Assembly (NCBI GenBank): GCA_016707605.1
Contig: JADJHJ010000010.1
Location: forward strand, 176,556 to 240,555
DNA length: 64,000 nt
DNA from: Candidatus Promineofilum glycogenicum
GTDB lineage: Bacteria; Chloroflexota; Anaerolineae; Promineifilales; Promineifilaceae
Reading direction: 5' to 3'
The position numbers and the translations under genes were made by a program. The notes beneath the pieces were generated by a model. It ran no database searches and was not told where the DNA came from. It saw only the letters and a program-made list of their open reading frames with translations. Shown piece after piece: positions 51,684-56,238 of this stretch. Positions within the stretch are counted from its first letter, which is position 1. Each line of letters opens with the position of its first letter.

Positions 51684-53777
51684 ATGACCGATAGCGCCGA
51701 CGACACCCTGACCGCCTCCACCGCAGGCTTATCGCCCACGGTGGTTAGCCACGTCGAAGGCGAGGCCGTCATCATCGGCGACAACGCCCGCCAGCAGATC
51801 AGCTACTACGGCGACATCATCGTCCGCGTCGATTCGCTGGAGGAGCTGCCGCCGAAGCCGGGCGAGCCGCCCTACAAGGGCCTGACCTACTACACCGAGG
51901 CCGACGAGGCCATCTTCTTCGGCCGCGAGCAACTGAGCGACGACCTGGCCGCCCGGTTGCAAACGACGCCCTTCCTGGCCGTGGCCGGGGCGTCGGGCAG
52001 CGGCAAGTCGTCGCTGTTGCGCGCCGGGGTCATTCCCCGCTTGCGGCGGCGCAACTGGCTGACCACCATCCTGACCCCCACGGCCGACCCACTGGGCCAA
52101 CTGGCGGCCGGCCTGTGCCGCGACGAGACCGACCTTAGCGCCGCCGACGCCCTGCGCGCCCAACTGGCCGCCGACCCGCAGACGTTGCGCCGCAAGGCCG
52201 ACCAACTGCTGGCCCGCGCCGGGGCCGGCCGGCTGCTGCTCATCGTCGACCAGTTCGAGGAGTTGTTCACCCAGTGCCACGACGAGGCCGGGCGGCGGGC
52301 GTTCATCGACAACCTGCTGGCCGCGGCGCGGGCCAACGGCCGGGCGACCGTCCTCATCGGCCTGCGGGCCGACTTTATGGGCCGGCTGACCGAGGTCGAA
52401 GAGTTGCGGGCGCTGGTGGAGCAGAACTTCGCCTTGCTGGGGCCGATGCAGCAGGAAGACCTGGTGCGGGTCATCGCCGAGCCGGCGCGCATCGGCGGCT
52501 GGGCCTTCGTCAGCGGCCTGGTCGAGCAGTTCCTGAGCGACGTGGGCCAGGAGCCGGGGCGGCTGCCGCTGCTATCCCACGCCCTGCTGGAGACGTGGGC
52601 GCGGCGGGCCGGGCACGTCATGACGCTGAAGGGCTACCGCGCCGCCGGCGGCGTCGAAGGGGCCATCGCCAAAACGGCCGAGGACACCTTGCGCCGGCTG
52701 GACGGGCCGGGCGAACAGGCCATTGTGCAGGCCATTTTCCTCTCCCTCACCGAGTTAGGCGAGGGATCGGAGGACACGCGCCGCATTGCCCGGCGCGACG
52801 AACTGGCGCGGGCCGGCAACCCGGCGGCGGTCGACGCCGTACTCAACACGCTGGCCGGGGCGCGGCTGGTGACGCTCGAAGCCGACAGCGTCCAGGTGGC
52901 CCACGAAGCGCTCATCCGCCGCTGGCCGCGGTTGCGCGAGTGGCTGGCCGACAACCGCGAGCGGCTGCGGTTTGAGCGGCAGTTGGAGGCGGACGCGGCC
53001 GAATGGCAGCGCCTCAGGCGCGACCCCGGCGCGCTTTATCGTGGGGCGCGGTTGGTTCAGGCGCAGGAGTGGATGCAGAACGGACGTGCTTTGTCGCCTC
53101 TCGTGAGCGAGTTCATGAGCGCGTCGGCAGTGGAGGCGGAGGAAGAGGCGCGGCAGGCACAGCAGTTGGCGCGGGCGGGGCTGGTGCGTCGGTTTTTGTA
53201 TATAGCGGCCGGGTTGGCGGCGGTTGCGGTTTTGGCGGCGATTATAGCCGGGATATTTGGTTACCAGCAGAATCAAACGGCCGGCGCCCTGTCAATCGAG
53301 ACGACCCGCGCTGTATCGGCCGAAGTAGACGCGAACGAGGCGCGAGCGACCTCCGAGTTCAATGAAGCGGAGGCCCAGGCGGCGCGAGCCACGTCCGAAG
53401 CCAATGCGGAGGAGGCCGTTAGTGCCGAAGCCACGGCCGTGGTCGCTCAGGGCGAGGCCGAAGCAGCACGGGCTGAGGTCGAACGGTTGAACCGGGTGAC
53501 CCGCGCCCAACGGCTGGCAGCCGAAGCCGAGAATTTATTAGTACGAGATCCGGAAGATGCGCTCCTGCTGGCTGCAGCCGCCTATCAAGGCACGAATTTG
53601 AGACATGGAACGACTACCGGCGAAGCGCGTGCGGCTTTGTATCATGCACTGGCCTCTCCTTACGAAACTACTTTAATGGTGTACGAAAATGAAACCTTTA
53701 TGCCCTTAATAGAAGCTGGACGAACTGAAGAGGTGTGGTCTGGTCACCTGCATTCAGCCCGGACGGAACGCGGGTAA
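51684..53777 (+). CDS. STAND-class P-loop NTPase (NACHT/nSTAND-like, of the type usually fused to WD40) with winged-helix region, one TM helix and coiled coil; runs into the WD40 repeats after a frame break
   Basis: YKGLTYYTEADEAIFFGRE, Walker A AVAGASGSGKSSLLRAG and Walker B LLLIVDQFEELF match the NTPase found in bacterial NACHT/WD40 proteins. The TM segment is FLYIAAGLAAVAVLAAIIAGIFGY; an Ala/Glu-rich coiled coil follows. Confidence 0.7.
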   Translation: MTDSADDTLTASTAGLSPTVVSHVEGEAVIIGDNARQQISYYGDIIVRVDSLEELPPKPGEPPYKGLTYYTEADEAIFFGREQLSDDLAARLQTTPFLAVAGASGSGKSSLLRAGVIPRLRRRNWLTTILTPTADPLGQLAAGLCRDETDLSAADALRAQLAADPQTLRRKADQLLARAGAGRLLLIVDQFEELFTQCHDEAGRRAFIDNLLAAARANGRATVLIGLRADFMGRLTEVEELRALVEQNFALLGPMQQEDLVRVIAEPARIGGWAFVSGLVEQFLSDVGQEPGRLPLLSHALLETWARRAGHVMTLKGYRAAGGVEGAIAKTAEDTLRRLDGPGEQAIVQAIFLSLTELGEGSEDTRRIARRDELARAGNPAAVDAVLNTLAGARLVTLEADSVQVAHEALIRRWPRLREWLADNRERLRFERQLEADAAEWQRLRRDPGALYRGARLVQAQEWMQNGRALSPLVSEFMSASAVEAEEEARQAQQLARAGLVRRFLYIAAGLAAVAVLAAIIAGIFGYQQNQTAGALSIETTRAVSAEVDANEARATSEFNEAEAQAARATSEANAEEAVSAEATAVVAQGEAEAARAEVERLNRVTRAQRLAAEAENLLVRDPEDALLLAAAAYQGTNLRHGTTTGEARAALYHALASPYETTLMVYENETFMPLIEAGRTEEVWSGHLHSARTERG

Positions 53778-55360
53778 TGACAGCGAGTTGGGACGGCGTG
53801 GCGCGGTTGTGGGACGCAGCTAGCGGGGAAGTAGGTCCCGAGGGTGGGGTCAATTCCGCGGTCTTCAGTCCGGACGGAACATTCGTGGCGACGGCGGGCG
53901 GTGACGGAGCGGCCCGGCTGTGGGACGCTGAGAACGGCGCGGAACTGGCCGTACTGCAAGGTCCCGGGGATGGGATCAGGATTATCGTCTTCAGTCCAGA
54001 TGGCACGCGAGTCGTCACGGTGAGTGATGGGACGCCGCAGCTATGGGATGTTGAGAGCGGCATGGAACTGGGCGTGCTGATCGGGCATGAGTCTATGGTT
54101 CAGTCCGTGGCGTTCAGTTCCGGATGGCACGCAGTTGGTTACGGCAGGCGCTGATGAGACCGCGCGCCTATGGGACGTTGCGAGCAGGGAGGAACTGGCT
54201 GTGCTGGCAGGTCATGAGGGATGGGTCAATTCCGCGGTGTTCAGTCCGGATGGCATGCGCGTGTTGACGGCAAGTGAAGATATGACCGCGCGGCTGTGGG
54301 ACGCTAAGAGCGGTGCGGAATTGACCATGCTGGCAGGGCATCGTGACCGCCTTACCTCAGCGGTATTCAGTCCAGACGGGACACGTATAGTAACCACCAG
54401 CCGTGACGGGACCGCGCGACTGTGGGACGTCAGAAGAGGGATGGAATTAGCCACAATGGTCGAGCATACTATGATAGTCAATTCCGCTGCGTTCAACCCG
54501 GATGGGACGCAGGTGGCAACGGCAGGATGGGACTTGACTGTACGGGTGTGGGACGCTGAGAGCGGCGAGGCGCCGGCCATGCTGGAAGGTCACGACGATC
54601 TAATCAGATCCGTCGCCTTCAGCCCCAATGGTGAACAACTGGTGACGGCGAGCCATGATGGAACAGCGCGGCTATGGGACGTGGCGAGCAGGGAGGAACT
54701 GGCTGTGCTGGAAGGTCATGAGGGTTGGGTCATGTCCGCGGTCTTTAACCCGGACGGAACGAAGGTGATCACGACGGGCTTGGATGGAACAGTGCGGTTG
54801 TGGGACACGGGAACCAGGACAGAGTTGGCCATCCTGAGTCTATATGAAGCAATAATCGATCACCCGTCATTCAGTCCTGAGACATCAGGGATAGTAGCGA
54901 TAAGTGCGGACTTTACGCGGTTAGTAATATCAGGCGCAGACGGGATGGCATGGCTGTGGGACTTAGCCAGCTCTGATCCAGCTGTTGAATTGGCCGGGCA
55001 CAGACGAACCATCTTCTCTGCGGCGTTCAGCCCGGACGGAACGATGGTTGTAACAACGAGCGCTGATGGCACGGCGCGAGTGTGGAAGACGGTGACTGGC
55101 GAGCTTCTGGCCGTGCTGGATGGACACAAAGATTTGGTATGGGCCGCGGCGTTCAGCCCCGACGGGACGCGGGTGGTAACAGCGAGCTGGGACGAAACGG
55201 CCCGACTGTGGGACGCGACCAGTGGGCGTCAACTGGACATATTTACTGGCGATGGAGATAAGTCTCAGCTGTTTTCAGTCCAGACGGATCTCGGGTGGTA
55301 ACGGCAGCCAACAACGGGACGGTGCGAATCTGGGCCGTGGCAGCGTGCCTTTGGAAATGA
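53735..55360 (+). pseudogene. WD40 beta-propeller repeat region (~13 repeats), probably the C-terminal half of the STAND gene; split by at least three 1-nt frameshifts (~53735-53760, ~54115-54122, ~55255-55275)
   Basis: Repeated 'VxSAVFSPDGTRVxTAS.DGTARLWD' units across ORFs 53735..54154, 54087..55301 and the frame ending TGA 55358-55360 (...VFSPDGSRVVTAANNGTVRIWAVAACLWK*). 'gcgttcagttccggatgg' carries an extra t relative to the other eight repeats (gcgttcagtccggatgg). Confidence 0.6.
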
Positions 55361-55491: not shown

Positions 55492-55494
55492 CCC

Positions 55495-56238
55495 ATGACT
55501 ACCACCGACGCCTACCCATCCGAACTACAAGACCTCATCACCACCACCTTCAGCCGCCCCGACCTGGCCGACCTCTGCCTGCGCCTGGGCATCAACTTCG
55601 ACAGCCTGCCCGACGCCGGCGTGGCCGCCCAGGCCCGCGAACTCATCCTGCTGCTGGCCCGGCAGGAGCGGCTGCCGGAACTGCTGGACGCGCTGCGAGC
55701 CGTACGGCCCAACGTCGCCTGGCCGCCCGTTCCGCCCGGCTATCGGCTGCCCGCCGCCGCCCCGCCCGCGCCGACCGCCGGCGGCGGCAGCAGCTTCACC
55801 CTCGGCTCGGTCAAGGCCGACAACCTCATCGTCGGCAACCACGCCAACATGACCATCAACCAGGGGCCGCGCTACGACCTGTCGGGCGACTTCCGCGGGG
55901 CGCTGCTCAACATCGAGTCCACCTTGCGCGACACGCGGCAGGCCATCGAGAACCTGCCCGCGCCCGACGACGCCCGCGCCGCCCTCATCCGCCTCGTCGG
56001 CCGGCTCGACCGCGCTCTGCAAACCACGCCGCCCGACCGCGCGCCGCAGGCGGCCGAGGTGGCCGACATCACCAAGGAGTTGGTCAAGGCCGCCGGCGCG
56101 GCCCGGCCCCGCCCGGCGGTCTTGCGTGGCCTGGGCGACGAACTGCGCCAGGCCGCCGCCGCCCTGGCCGACGCCGTGCCCGCCGCGCCCGACATTGCCG
56201 ACCAACTCGCCTCCGCGGTCGTTGACTTAACGGCCTGA
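55495..56238 (+). CDS. Protein with N-terminal effector-associated-domain (EAD1-like, death-fold-like adaptor) and an uncharacterised Ala/Pro-rich C-terminal region
   Basis: LQDLITTTFSRPDLADLCLRLGINFDSLPDAGVAAQARELILLLARQERLPELLDALRAVRPN fits the EAD1 pattern (L..AF....L..L...LG.....L.G......A.ELI..A.R.GRLPEL..A.R..RP.N) seen N-terminal to effectors in STAND/WD40 conflict systems. Confidence 0.55.
   Translation: MTTTDAYPSELQDLITTTFSRPDLADLCLRLGINFDSLPDAGVAAQARELILLLARQERLPELLDALRAVRPNVAWPPVPPGYRLPAAAPPAPTAGGGSSFTLGSVKADNLIVGNHANMTINQGPRYDLSGDFRGALLNIESTLRDTRQAIENLPAPDDARAALIRLVGRLDRALQTTPPDRAPQAAEVADITKELVKAAGAARPRPAVLRGLGDELRQAAAALADAVPAAPDIADQLASAVVDLTA

What the first reader, a model, noticed from the sequence alone, without database searches (positions are those of the whole stretch)
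51684..56238. Candidate STAND-NTPase / WD40 / EAD conflict (immunity-like) locus
A P-loop NTPase of the NACHT/nSTAND type is followed in the same reading direction by ~13 WD40 repeats. That is the sensor-like architecture of antiviral STAND and Apaf-like proteins. A 44-aa ORF is translationally coupled to its end. Next comes a 247-aa protein whose N-terminus fits the effector-associated domain (EAD1) pattern, which links effectors to STAND NTPases in the 'ternary' conflict systems described by the Aravind group.

This copy is unusual in three ways:
- The NTPase carries a single TM helix plus a coiled coil between the winged-helix region and the WD40 repeats.
- The NTPase has no N-terminal effector or EAD of its own.
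- The EAD protein has no recognisable enzymatic effector. Its C-terminus is Ala/Pro-rich, so it may be a novel effector or adaptor.

Two secreted peptidoglycan hydrolases (M23 peptidase, amidase_2) follow in the same orientation.
Basis: partly seen in the sequence, partly recalled or inferred. Interest (0 to 1): 0.72.

Follow-up and report, generated by a model that had tools for sequence, protein, structure and literature searches.

The report
Frameshifted NLR-like sensor plus adaptor gene
A filamentous sludge bacterium carries a two-gene, immune-receptor-like module: a membrane-spanning ATPase with WD40 sensor repeats (broken by four frameshifts in this copy) and a small adaptor protein, whose second domain turns out to be a widespread, undescribed partner of such ATPases that shares a short, co-varying motif with them.

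Summary
Window 51684-55491 encodes one nSTAND1 STAND NTPase (Pfam E=5e-125), then a TM helix, a coiled coil, about 13 WD40 repeats and a Cys-pair tail. Four 1-nt indels split it. Near-identical metagenome contigs (L005, L010) carry the gene intact.

Four nt downstream, 55495-56238 encodes EAD7 (E=1.7e-13), a Pro/Ala linker, a short motif and a confident five-helix C-terminal domain (CTD). This gene order recurs in every relative with enough contig. The source is a Candidatus Promineofilum MAG.

- The TM helix is typical of the family (107 of 113 homologues), not unusual.
- The CTD is a large, unannotated, DUF4404-related family (900 clusters). It always sits C-terminal to EAD7, EAD1, caspase or TIR, or stands alone.
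- 31 of 39 short CTD genes lie directly upstream of an nSTAND1 gene; others precede NB-ARC-TPR or trypsin-TPR genes.
- The STAND N-terminus repeats the first ~20 residues of the CTD, and the two copies co-vary.
- The window's NTPase N-terminus matches the small protein's pre-CTD motif (hhalign P=2.6e-6).

Best reading: an NLR-like conflict module with an adaptor, coupled by a shared motif. Function is untested, and this copy may be a pseudogene or an assembly artefact.

The parts
51684..55491 (+). One receptor gene: N-terminal motif, nSTAND1 NTPase, TM helix, coiled coil, ~13 WD40 repeats and a Cys-pair tail. It reads as about 1270 aa once four 1-nt indels are repaired, and is split into ORFs 51684-53777, 53735-54154, 54087-55301 and 55222-55491.
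   Evidence: ORFs and frames. Repair against L005. Intact orthologues of 1327 aa (L010), 1289 aa (L002) and 1397 aa (L004).
51741..51824 (+). N-terminal 'class B' motif VVSHVEGEAVIIGDNARQQISYYGDIIV (aa 20-47), directly before the NOD.
   Evidence: The same motif class occurs in about 27 nSTAND1 homologues. A class-B HMM scores E=5e-12 here. hhalign against the small protein's motif profile gives prob 88.7%, P=2.6e-6. It is disordered in the AF2 monomer.
51870..53027 (+). nSTAND1 NTPase module (aa 63-448): P-loop NBD, helical domain and winged helix. Walker A is at 51987-52013 and Walker B at 52233-52262.
   Evidence: Pfam PF20703 E=5e-125. AF2 pLDDT >90. Foldseek hits: PAB2304 6.8e-9, Cdc6/Orc1, ZAR1 2e-6, Avs4 7e-6.
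53193..53261 (+). Single predicted transmembrane helix (aa 504-526). Arg residues lie on the N-side (…RAGLVRR|TM|YQQNQT).
   Evidence: Sequence and coordinates. It is part of a long helix 472-528 in the AF2 model. An equivalent hydrophobic segment is found in 107 of 113 homologues.
53265..53540 (+). Ala/Glu-rich helical (coiled-coil-like) spacer between the TM helix and the WD40 region.
   Evidence: AF2 helix 550-621. It is about 60 aa longer than in L002 and L004.
53735..55345 (+). WD40 repeat region: about 13 units of 42 aa, with lower GC than the flanks. Frameshifting indels lie at 53732/53733, 54118-54121, 55263/55264 and 55344/55345. Two repeats are missing relative to L005, near 53830.
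   Evidence: Pfam WD40; repeat table; indel list; GC.
55345..55491 (+). Conserved C-terminal tail with two Cys residues (DFCSRYYQDAPNDCP). The stop TAA lies 3 nt before the next ATG, and a GGAGGA sits inside the tail's coding sequence.
   Evidence: 70-81% identical to the tails of L002 and L004. In frame in L005 and L010. Junction sequence.
55495..56238 (+). Gene for the 247-aa adaptor-like protein (MBK7218197.1, Candidatus Promineofilum sp.).
   Evidence: ORF; 25 homologues of 55-98% identity; exact match in NCBI.
55525..55710 (+). EAD7 domain (aa 11-72), a four-helix module.
   Evidence: Pfam PF19960 E=1.7e-13 and EAD1 E=7.3e-7. AF2 helices 6-70 with pLDDT ~96.
55720..55794 (+). Pro/Ala/Gly-rich disordered linker. 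It differs from L005 by in-frame 3- and 18-nt indels.
   Evidence: Alignment A1; indels; pLDDT <50.
55795..55866 (+). Class-B-like motif FTLGSVKADNLIVGNHANMTINQG (aa 101-124).
   Evidence: hhalign to the NTPase N-terminal motif profile: P=2.6e-6 over 26 columns. Conserved across the family.
55873..56235 (+). CTD: 'class A' motif YDLSGDFRGALLNIESTL (55873-55926), which runs into helix 1 of a five-helix bundle (helices 133-152, 158-175, 180-200, 207-222, 231-246).
   Evidence: AF2 pLDDT ~97. Family of 900 clusters. 49 of 117 members hit DUF4404. The CTD HMM scores E=8.9e-31 on this ORF.
51533..51650 (.). Palindromic REP-like element that fills the intergenic space just upstream of the receptor gene's start. 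Relatives that start with a zinc ribbon have coding sequence at the corresponding position.
   Evidence: I5, I16, D9, D18. The element is also present in L010, with a 1-nt difference.

Best explanation
The locus is a two-gene NLR-like (STAND) signalling module of a filamentous Chloroflexota bacterium, Candidatus Promineofilum.

**Gene 1** is a single-pass membrane receptor. The nSTAND1 NTPase sits on the cytoplasmic side. The coiled coil, ~13 WD40 repeats and Cys-pair tail sit on the other side of the TM helix.

**Gene 2** is translationally coupled to gene 1. It encodes an adaptor made of EAD7, a flexible linker, a short motif and a five-helix CTD.

**Proposed mechanism (inferred).**
1. Ligand binding to the hypervariable WD40 sensor drives NTP-dependent oligomerisation of the NOD.
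2. Oligomerisation clusters the NTPase's short N-terminal motifs.
3. These engage the matching motif on the gene-2 protein, by templating or by strand or helix exchange. This changes the state of the CTD bundle.
4. The EAD7 domain then brings in EAD7-tagged effectors encoded elsewhere in the genome.
5. In sister systems the CTD is fused directly to caspase or TIR, or stands alone as the only partner.

**Shown:** domain identities, conserved adjacency, the shared and co-varying motif in relatives, family-wide TM helix, and sensor-cassette hypervariability between strains.

**Inferred:** topology, the direction of signalling, the physical motif-motif interaction, and the conflict or immune role.

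In this particular assembly gene 1 is out of frame at four sites. The module is therefore either inactivated here or mis-assembled.
For: **Domains.** nSTAND1 E=5e-125, WD40, EAD7 E=1.7e-13. The NTPase has a STAND fold. The CTD is a five-helix bundle with pLDDT ~97.

**Conserved pair.**
- L002, L004, L005 and L010 have an intact nSTAND1-TM-WD40 gene with the EAD7-CTD gene 3-7 nt after it.
- L066 has SIR2_2, then nSTAND1-PPC, then caspase-CTD, then EAD7-CTD. L045 has nSTAND1, then caspase-CTD.

**CTD as a general STAND partner.**
- The family has 900 clusters, and the CTD is always C-terminal.
- N-terminal partners are EAD7 (26), caspase (13), EAD1 (8), TIR (3), bDLD1 and CHAT.
- 31 of 39 short CTD genes are directly upstream of an nSTAND1 gene. 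Others sit upstream of NB-ARC-TPR or trypsin-TPR genes.

**Shared motif.**
- The STAND N-termini match CTD-HMM positions 3-30 at E=1e-4 to 1e-8 (most 1e-5 or lower): GDxYxLSGDFRGAVINIKST.
- A variant, ISGNIxNS, occurs in both partners of L030, L039, L049, L054 and L056.
- Cognate pairs are more alike than non-cognate pairs (permutation p=0.0006).
- In the window's own pair, hhalign gives prob 88.7%, P=2.6e-6.

**Conflict-type features.**
- Homologues carry N-terminal TIR, trypsin, kinase or EAD domains, as described by Kaur et al..
- The sensor cassette is swapped between strains whose flanks are 98-99% identical.
- WD40 variability is concentrated at a few repeat positions.

**Topology hints.**
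- 107 of 113 homologues have a TM helix with R/K on the N-side.
- Paralogues carry PPC domains after the TM helix.
- A Cys pair is conserved in the tail.
Against: - No experiment exists for any member, and PADLOC and NCBIfam recognise nothing.
- No second EAD7 gene lies in the 64-kb window, so the adaptor's client is unknown.
- The window's motif match is short, and the class-B HMM alone did not reach E<=0.01 on the small protein. Gly/Asn/Ile-rich linkers can look alike by composition.
- AF2 places part of the class A motif in helix 1 of the bundle, not in a beta structure.
- Most 'long' CTD proteins (40 of 44) have no adjacent nSTAND1.
- Gene 1 has four frameshifts here.
- The cognate versus non-cognate test is confounded by shared ancestry.
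Confidence: 0.6

Rival explanations
1. In this genome the locus is a decaying remnant. The receptor gene is a true pseudogene (four frameshifts, two repeats lost, degenerate repeats), and only the small gene is still readable.
For: There are four 1-nt indels within 1.6 kb, against none in about 4.2 kb of flanking coding sequence aligned to L005 and L010. Other long repetitive genes in the window are intact. Several repeats are degenerate, for example GPGDGIRIIVF and LSLYEAIIDH. However, L005 has those same degenerate repeats and is still in frame.
Against: Contigs with near-identical flanks (97.6-99.2% DNA identity), L005 and L010, carry the gene intact. The source is a MAG. The WD40 cassette differs between co-occurring strains, which is where consensus assemblies make indel errors. 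Other long-read MAG loci also show split nSTAND1 genes, such as L021 and L056. Short-read assemblies break repeatedly inside this repeat region (L006-L009).
Confidence: 0.4
2. The small protein is a negative regulator rather than an adaptor or effector. Its motif or CTD would mask the NTPase N-terminal motif and hold the receptor off, as an antitoxin or chaperone would. EAD7 would tether it elsewhere.
For: The two genes are tightly coupled and presumably stoichiometric. Stand-alone CTD proteins have no enzymatic domain. The motif forms part of a stable helix bundle in the monomer model.
Against: The same CTD is fused to caspase, TIR and CHAT domains. That pattern fits an output or receiver module better than an inhibitor. 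EADs are described as recruiters of effectors.
Confidence: 0.2
3. The module is a housekeeping envelope-signalling receptor. An extracytoplasmic WD40 sensor would control the downstream peptidoglycan hydrolases (M23 peptidase, amidase), for example during filament growth or septation.
For: The WD40 part probably lies outside the membrane. M23- or C39-type peptidase and Amidase_2-Golvesin_C genes follow in the same orientation in the window, L002, L004 and L006.
Against: The hydrolases are absent after the module in L066 and on the P0011 contig, and in the Anaerolineae CTD-STAND pairs. The family's fused domains are TIR, caspase, trypsin, SIR2-linked and EADs. The sensor cassette is hypervariable between strains, which is unexpected for a housekeeping sensor.
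Confidence: 0.1
4. The 'shared motif' in the window's own pair is only compositional similarity of Gly/Asn/Ile-rich linkers. The two proteins would be linked solely through EAD7-EAD7 contacts with a third, EAD7-bearing STAND paralogue.
For: The class-B HMM hits many CTD proteins only over its first 21-25 positions. EAD7-classB-nSTAND1-FGS paralogues exist (P0032, P0038). So EAD7 plus this stretch may travel together as one unit.
Against: The profile-profile match has P=2.6e-6 over 26 columns. The class A motif pairing in relatives is unambiguous and co-varies. The gene pair stays adjacent although the NTPase has no EAD7.
Confidence: 0.15

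Closest known systems
EAD/effector - STAND NTPase (nSTAND1, NACHT, MNS) - FGS/repeat conflict systems of multicellular bacteria (Kaur, Burroughs, Iyer & Aravind, eLife 2020 and 2021; PMC7159879, PMC8195603)
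   Same: The NOD clade is the same (nSTAND1). EAD7 is present. Homologues replace the N-terminus with TIR, trypsin, kinase, EAD1 or EAD7. The C-terminus is a repeat or lectin-type sensor. The systems are restricted to filamentous bacteria and occur as variable islands with SIR2 and caspase genes.
   Different: The adjacent NTPase carries no EAD. EAD7 sits on a separate small protein, fused to a five-helix domain that none of the papers I could search mentions. A TM helix separates the NOD from the sensor. No vWA or MoxR genes are present, so this is not a ternary system.
NLR/effector gene pairs that share an amyloid signalling motif: fungal HET-S/NWD2 and bacterial Bell-BASS/NLR pairs (Dyrka et al. 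2020, bioRxiv 10.1101/2020.01.06.895854)
   Same: The genes are adjacent and often overlap or lie a few nt apart. A 20-25-aa motif rich in G, N, S and alternating hydrophobic residues occurs at the NLR N-terminus and in the partner. The partners co-vary. NB-ARC-TPR NLRs are among the partners. The pairs occur in multicellular bacteria. The window's small protein has two motif units, as in double BASS motifs or HET-s R1/R2.
   Different: The motif lies N-terminal to the partner's helical domain and overlaps its first helix, rather than forming a C-terminal tail. The partner domain is DUF4404-related, not Bell or HeLo. Most NODs are nSTAND1, which that survey did not search. Amyloid formation is untested, and AF2 models half of the motif as helix.
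EACC1 two-gene membrane-associated conflict system (Kaur et al. 2020)
   Same: A small 'constant' protein is sometimes fused to an EAD. It is encoded next to a large variable protein that can contain a caspase or nSTAND1, and it acts at the membrane.
   Different: [quoted passage not shown] The CTD here is a soluble-looking five-helix bundle of ~125 aa. EACC1 is not among the 25 most frequent of the 45 Pfam families matched by the 117 CTD proteins; only those 25 are listed.
Apaf-1-like and Avs-type STAND receptors with WD40 or TPR sensors (for example Avs4; bacterial Apaf-1-like proteins in PMC13581612)
   Same: The logic is NOD plus a beta-propeller sensor. The NTPase model resembles Avs4 and ZAR1 structurally.
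   Different: The NOD clade differs (nSTAND1, not NB-ARC or AP-ATPase). There is a TM helix, and no effector or CARD in cis. PADLOC finds no Avs hit.

Membership tests
nSTAND1 STAND NTPase (Pfam PF20703) | Profile match above the curated threshold | tested here: met
   418.5 bits against a cut-off of 27.1, E=5e-125, covering profile positions 1-378 of 379.
nSTAND1 STAND NTPase (Pfam PF20703) | Intact Walker A and Walker B motifs; NBD, helical domain and winged-helix fold | tested here: met
   GASGSGKSS and LLLIVDQFEE. AF2 model with pLDDT >90 in the NOD. Foldseek hits to PAB2304, Cdc6/Orc1, ZAR1 and Avs4.
nSTAND1 STAND NTPase (Pfam PF20703) | One uninterrupted reading frame joining the NOD to the C-terminal sensor repeats | tested here: not met
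   The window has four 1-nt indels. The frame is intact in L005, L010, L002 and L004.
EAD7 (Pfam PF19960; Kaur et al. 2020) | Profile match above threshold; a small, non-enzymatic, all-alpha domain | tested here: met
   50.6 bits against 32, E=1.7e-13. Four helices at aa 6-70 with pLDDT ~96.
EAD7 (Pfam PF19960; Kaur et al. 2020) | [quoted passage not shown] | tested here: not met
   A local EAD7 HMM finds only the 55495 ORF in the 64-kb window, and the adjacent NTPase has none. EAD7-nSTAND1 paralogues exist in other metagenomes (P0032, P0038, P0121, P0122). The rest of this genome could not be searched.
vWA-MoxR 'ternary' conflict systems (VMAP/iSTAND) | MoxR AAA+ and vWA genes plus a VMAP or iSTAND third component in one neighbourhood | tested here: not met
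   The neighbours are an FtsX/ABC transporter, lysine 2,3-aminomutase, an M23 peptidase, an amidase and an FAD monooxygenase.
Known anti-phage systems (PADLOC-DB v2) | Match to a system-specific protein model | tested here: not met
   Only P-loop-local hits (mad8, 3.8e-6 over 42 aa) and a WD40-type hit. Nothing for the small protein.
NLR-effector pairs with a shared signalling motif (HET-S/NWD2, Bell-BASS) | Adjacent genes, with a short motif present both at the NLR N-terminus and in the partner | tested here: met
   Relatives: 29 pairs share GDxYxLSGDFRGAxINIKST. A variant motif co-occurs in both partners of five loci. Window pair: hhalign P=2.6e-6.
NLR-effector pairs with a shared signalling motif (HET-S/NWD2, Bell-BASS) | Motif forms a C-terminal tail after a Bell/HeLo-type effector domain; NOD is NACHT or NB-ARC | tested here: not met
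   The motif precedes the helical CTD and overlaps it. The partner is DUF4404-related. The NOD is mostly nSTAND1, with NB-ARC in L028, L060 and L083.
NLR-effector pairs with a shared signalling motif (HET-S/NWD2, Bell-BASS) | The motif forms a self-templating cross-beta amyloid | not testable with these tools
   This needs ThT, EM or ssNMR on peptides, or prion assays in vivo. The AF2 monomer model shows a disordered stretch running into a helix.
DUF4404 (Pfam PF14357) | Profile match of the C-terminal domain | tested here: inconclusive
   The window's CTD gives no hit at E<=1. 49 of 117 family members hit it (best E=6e-10). Of the four L046, L050 and L052 hits whose scores were listed, three fall below the 27-bit cut-off.

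The most novel reading that the evidence does not exclude
The CTD and its leading motif define a new class of NLR signalling partner. A ~20-aa motif at the N-terminus of membrane-spanning STAND receptors, whose WD40, FGS, TPR or PPC sensors face outside the cell, would template or exchange with the same motif at the start of a five-helix bundle. That would unlatch the bundle, whose last helix is hydrophobic in most members, so that it acts as a membrane-directed executioner or activates a fused caspase or TIR domain. This would be a bacterial 'transmembrane NLR' pathway with prion-like or helix-swap signal transfer. It is analogous to HET-S/NWD2 but built from different parts.
Probability: 0.25. 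Interest if true: 0.8.

Novelty: new variant of a known kind. Interest (0 to 1): 0.55.

Why it matters
STAND/NLR receptors are central to immunity in animals, plants, fungi and bacteria. How the oligomerised receptor passes its signal to separate effector proteins is known for only a few adaptor types: Death-fold domains, TIR, and amyloid motifs.

This locus led to a large, unannotated partner family (at least 900 sequence clusters, almost all in filamentous Chloroflexota). Its first ~20 residues are copied at the N-terminus of the neighbouring STAND protein and co-vary with it. The same domain is also fused to caspase, TIR and EAD modules. That gives a concrete, testable coupling mechanism for the nSTAND1 clade, for which I found no experimental study in the searched papers.

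The family-wide TM helix between NOD and sensor also suggests that many of these receptors sense outside the cell, unlike the characterised cytosolic STAND/NLR receptors.

For this window the practical message is more modest. It holds one ordinary member of that system, and its receptor gene is out of frame.

Tried and rejected
**Searches that led nowhere**
- A genome-contig scan with the full small-protein alignment A1 found nothing, because the pattern was taken from the Pro-rich linker.
- Alignment A3 was too diverse for a pattern scan. The trimmed CTD alignment A4 worked.
- A homologue search with the EAD7 domain alone returned two fragments, so the adaptor's EAD7 client could not be sought that way.
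- The afdb50 fold library was unavailable.
- PADLOC and NCBIfam gave nothing for the small protein or the CTD.
- A literature search for DUF4404 or PF14357 found no papers.

**Readings considered and rejected**
- *Programmed frameshifting.* There are four sites with different signs and no common slippery context, and all are absent from L005 and L010.
- *The 44-aa ORF as a separate gene.* It is the displaced C-terminal tail.
- *CTD = EACC1 or VMAP-C.* Neither is among the 25 most frequent Pfam families matched by the 117 CTD proteins (only those 25 are listed), and EACC1 is a TM-helix domain.
- *The peptidoglycan hydrolases as part of the system.* They are not conserved outside close relatives.
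- *A missing zinc ribbon as 5' truncation.* L010 has the same short N-terminus in an intact gene.
- *682-aa class-B nSTAND1 proteins as further examples.* They have different, Pfam-less downstream genes that hit neither the CTD nor the class B motif model.

Full report
**1. What is in the sequence**

The plus strand between 51.6 and 56.3 kb holds two genes.

*Gene 1: the receptor.* ORF 51684-53777 (697 aa) matches Pfam nSTAND1 at E=5e-125 over aa 63-448.
- It has Walker A GASGSGKSS and Walker B LLLIVDQFEE.
- An AlphaFold2 model of aa 1-639 (pLDDT 84.6) shows a P-loop NBD, a helical domain and a winged helix.
- After these comes one long helix (472-528) that contains the hydrophobic stretch 504-526, and then a second long helix (550-621).
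- Foldseek relates the model to PAB2304, Cdc6/Orc1, the ZAR1 resistosome and Avs4.

The reading frame then changes. tblastn with intact relatives follows the protein through frame 1 (to 53651), frame 3 (53735-54118), frame 1 (54120-55289), frame 3 (55265-55345) and frame 2 (55345-55482). Across these pieces lie about 13 WD40 units of 42 aa. They are followed by a conserved tail with two cysteines.

It ends 3 nt before the ATG of the next gene, and a GGAGGA lies inside it.

*Gene 2: the small protein.* ORF 55495-56238 (247 aa) matches EAD7 (E=1.7e-13) and, more weakly, EAD1.

The downstream genes are an M23 peptidase and an Amidase_2/Golvesin_C protein. The upstream gene is lysine 2,3-aminomutase (TIGR03820, E=3e-161).

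**2. Source, and are the frameshifts real?**

Exact protein look-ups place the window in a MAG named Candidatus Promineofilum sp. (MBK7218197.1 and neighbouring accessions, on a 279,779-bp contig).

Two metagenome contigs are near-identical to the window.
- L005 (activated sludge) is 97.7% identical over 53737-58221 and has gene 1 in frame. Against it the window has -1 nt after 53732, +1 nt at 54118-54121, -1 nt after 55263 and -1 nt after 55344. It also has an in-frame loss of two repeats, and in-frame 3- and 18-nt differences in the linker of gene 2.
- L010 (wastewater) is 97.6-99.2% identical in both flanks. It encodes an intact 1327-aa protein with the same short N-terminus, MTDSADD….

No frameshifting indel occurs in the roughly 4.2 kb of aligned flanking coding sequence. 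The window's other long repetitive genes are intact.

So the damage is specific to the WD40 part. It could be true decay. It could equally be a consensus error in a region that differs between co-occurring strains. Short-read assemblies repeatedly break there (L006-L009). Other long-read MAG loci also show split nSTAND1 genes (L021, L056). I cannot decide between these without the reads.

**3. The sensor cassette is hypervariable**

L010 and the window are almost identical up to about aa 465 of the NTPase, and again in the last ~35 residues. Everything between is strongly divergent: the TM segment, the spacer and all the WD40 repeats. L010's cassette resembles that of L002 instead.

Repeat units are 47-64% identical to one another on average within a protein. 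The differences are concentrated at a few positions. The cassette also has lower GC and GC3 than its flanks. This is the pattern expected of a recognition domain under diversification and exchange.

**4. The 'unusual' TM helix is the rule**

Of 113 nSTAND1 homologues with at least 120 residues after the NOD, 107 have a hydrophobic segment within 150 residues of its end. In the sequences printed, Arg/Lys residues generally lie on its N-side.
- Their C-terminal domains are FGE-sulfatase/FGS, WD40, TPR or PPC.
- With the NTPase necessarily cytoplasmic, the sensor is inferred to lie outside the membrane.
- The conserved Cys pair in the tail, and the PPC domains of paralogues, fit that reading. Topology was not tested.
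- I did not find this feature discussed in the sections of Kaur et al. 2021 that I read, or in the 2026 STAND survey.

**5. The small protein**

AlphaFold2, run with a 117-sequence alignment, gives pLDDT 87 overall.
- EAD7 forms four helices (aa 6-70).
- Residues 75-129 are disordered.
- Residues 133-246 form a five-helix bundle with pLDDT ~97.

Structure searches give only generic helical bundles. There are no PDB relatives by sequence. There is no Pfam or NCBIfam family for this copy.

A profile of the C-terminal part finds 900 clusters at E<=1e-3 among 1.84 billion representatives. The domain always lies at the C-terminus of proteins of 117-772 aa.

Of 117 members scanned, 49 touch DUF4404. 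The N-terminal parts are EAD7 (26), caspase (13), EAD1 (8), TIR (3), bDLD1, CHAT and others. No paper in the library mentions DUF4404.

A genome scan returned 77 loci. Almost all are from Chloroflexota, plus Moorena and Candidatus Venteria.

**6. The partner relationship**

I used local HMMs for the CTD, nSTAND1 and EAD7 on all ORFs of these loci.
- 31 of 39 'short' CTD genes lie directly upstream of an nSTAND1-TPR gene, on the same strand.
- Others precede NB-ARC-TPR genes (L028, L060, L083, probably L036) or a trypsin-TPR gene (L014).
- In these pairs the large protein's N-terminus, just before the NOD, matches the first ~27 positions of the CTD profile. The small protein reads ADRFNMSGDFRGAIINIKSTL and the NTPase reads GDNYDLSGDFRGAVINIKSTIV.
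- In L030, L039/L041, L049, L054 and L056 both partners carry a different version. The small protein reads GDKITISGNIQNSILNIKS and the NTPase reads GDVIRISGNIVNSTIIVKS.
- Cognate pairs are slightly more alike than shuffled pairs (13.76 against 13.26 of 22 positions; p=0.0006). Shared ancestry contributes to this.

In Promineifilaceae and Chloroflexales the order is reversed and the CTD carries cargo.
- L066 has SIR2_2, nSTAND1-PPC, caspase-CTD and EAD7-CTD in that order.
- L045 has nSTAND1 followed by caspase-CTD.

**7. The window's own pair**

nSTAND1 N-termini fall into classes:
- class A (SGDFRGA);
- class B (GDxIxVGxIxGEGIAIGxNARVEINRYTEIIV), to which the window's VEGEAVIIGDNARQQISYYGDIIV belongs;
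- a third class;
- direct TIR, trypsin, kinase or EAD fusions.

The small protein has FTLGSVKADNLIVGNHANMTINQG immediately before its class A motif. A profile-profile comparison of this stretch with the class B alignment gives prob 88.7%, P=2.6e-6 over 26 columns.

The class B HMM alone did not reach significance on the small protein. It hits many other CTD proteins only over its first two thirds. So this link is weaker than the class A evidence.

Close relatives L002 and L004 add an N-terminal zinc ribbon to the NTPase. Zinc-ribbon-CTD proteins also exist (P0022-P0024) but are encoded alone.

**8. Interpretation**

The module fits the EAD/STAND conflict systems that Kaur et al. defined by comparative genomics. 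It departs from them in three ways:
- the NTPase has no EAD;
- the EAD sits on a separate CTD protein;
- coupling between the neighbours appears to run through a short shared motif.

The last point is the logic of fungal HET-S/NWD2 and bacterial Bell-BASS pairs. The parts are different, however, and the motif position is different. That survey searched only NACHT and NB-ARC NLRs next to Bell proteins.

I therefore read gene 2 as an adaptor. It would dock on the activated receptor through the motif or CTD and recruit EAD7-tagged effectors. Stand-alone CTD proteins imply that the bundle also has an output activity of its own. Its last helix is hydrophobic in most members (for example VMPTVLTIATQIV), though not in the window's copy.

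All mechanistic steps beyond domain identity, adjacency and motif sharing are inference. PADLOC finds no known defence system. No EAD7 client lies in the window.

**9. Verdict**

As a locus it is an ordinary and possibly defective member of a known kind. The partner domain and the co-varying motif that it led to are, as far as I could search, undescribed. They make the coupling mechanism of nSTAND1 receptors testable.

Noticed in passing
window 24441-24550, 25834-25905, 27269-27462, 40631-40733, 51533-51650, 58708-58793; and 18584-18712, 21835-21875, 34848-34929, 43090-43351, 43719-43780, 61176-61258: Two families of palindromic, REP-like intergenic elements litter the window. Their cores are CTCACGCAAAGACGCAAAGAACGCCAAGC…GCTTGGCGTTCTTTGCGTCTTTGCGTGAG and GGTTCCAGGGGCCAGG…GGGAAGAGCGCTCTTCCC…CCTGGCCCCTGGAACC. 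One copy lies immediately upstream of the receptor gene.
   Followed up: partly
window 46935-49739 (copies at 47688-47756, 48278-48443, 49101-49224; tandem repeats at 46950-47255): The long FtsX-like permease ORF (Pfam FtsX E=1.1e-24) contains copies of both REP-like elements without losing its frame. It also starts with three tandem 99-nt repeats that are 94-96% identical. Either the elements are tolerated as in-frame insertions or the ORF call is too long.
   Followed up: no
window 53073-55385 versus L010 2000-4488: Strains that are 98-99% identical in the flanks carry unrelated versions of the TM-spacer-WD40 cassette. The window's cassette matches L005, and L010's resembles L002. The cassette has lower GC (0.63 against 0.68-0.70), which suggests exchange of the cassette by recombination.
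   Followed up: partly
P0026-P0145 (homologues of window 51684-53300): 107 of 113 nSTAND1 homologues have a predicted TM helix between the NOD and the FGS, WD40, TPR or PPC sensor. This implies that many of these STAND receptors have extracytoplasmic sensors.
   Followed up: partly
L002 1-5803; L066 371-6770: Relatives have an upstream island of a SIR2_2 protein followed by a 1659-1752-aa nSTAND1-TM-PPC protein. L066 also has a caspase-CTD gene. The window and L010 lack these and have lysine 2,3-aminomutase instead.
   Followed up: partly
L002 6124-6220; L004 147-240; P0022-P0024 (L091-L094): A zinc ribbon plus Pro/Ala linker heads the NTPase in L002 and L004. The same kind of zinc ribbon replaces EAD7 on some CTD proteins. 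Those are encoded alone, between AraC/glyoxalase genes and an S1-domain gene. The zinc ribbon may be another matching adaptor.
   Followed up: partly
L021 8385-9806; L056 8425-11368; L001 6051-9416: nSTAND1 genes are split into two or three ORFs in L021 and L056. In L001 my stop-to-stop scan shows the + strand gene open (6090-10001) while the deposited calls list two opposite-strand ORFs there. Indel errors, or real decay, affect this gene family elsewhere too.
   Followed up: no
window 45075-46577: An ABC-type ATPase is fused to two cyclic-nucleotide-binding domains (cNMP_binding E=1.9e-41). It lies just upstream of the FtsX-like permease gene.
   Followed up: no
window 56265-58637 and 58731-61178: Two large proteins: one with an M23 peptidase domain and one with Amidase_2 plus Golvesin_C. 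Both have long, unannotated N- and C-terminal regions. In relatives the M23 gene is replaced by a Peptidase_C39_2 gene at the same position.
   Followed up: partly
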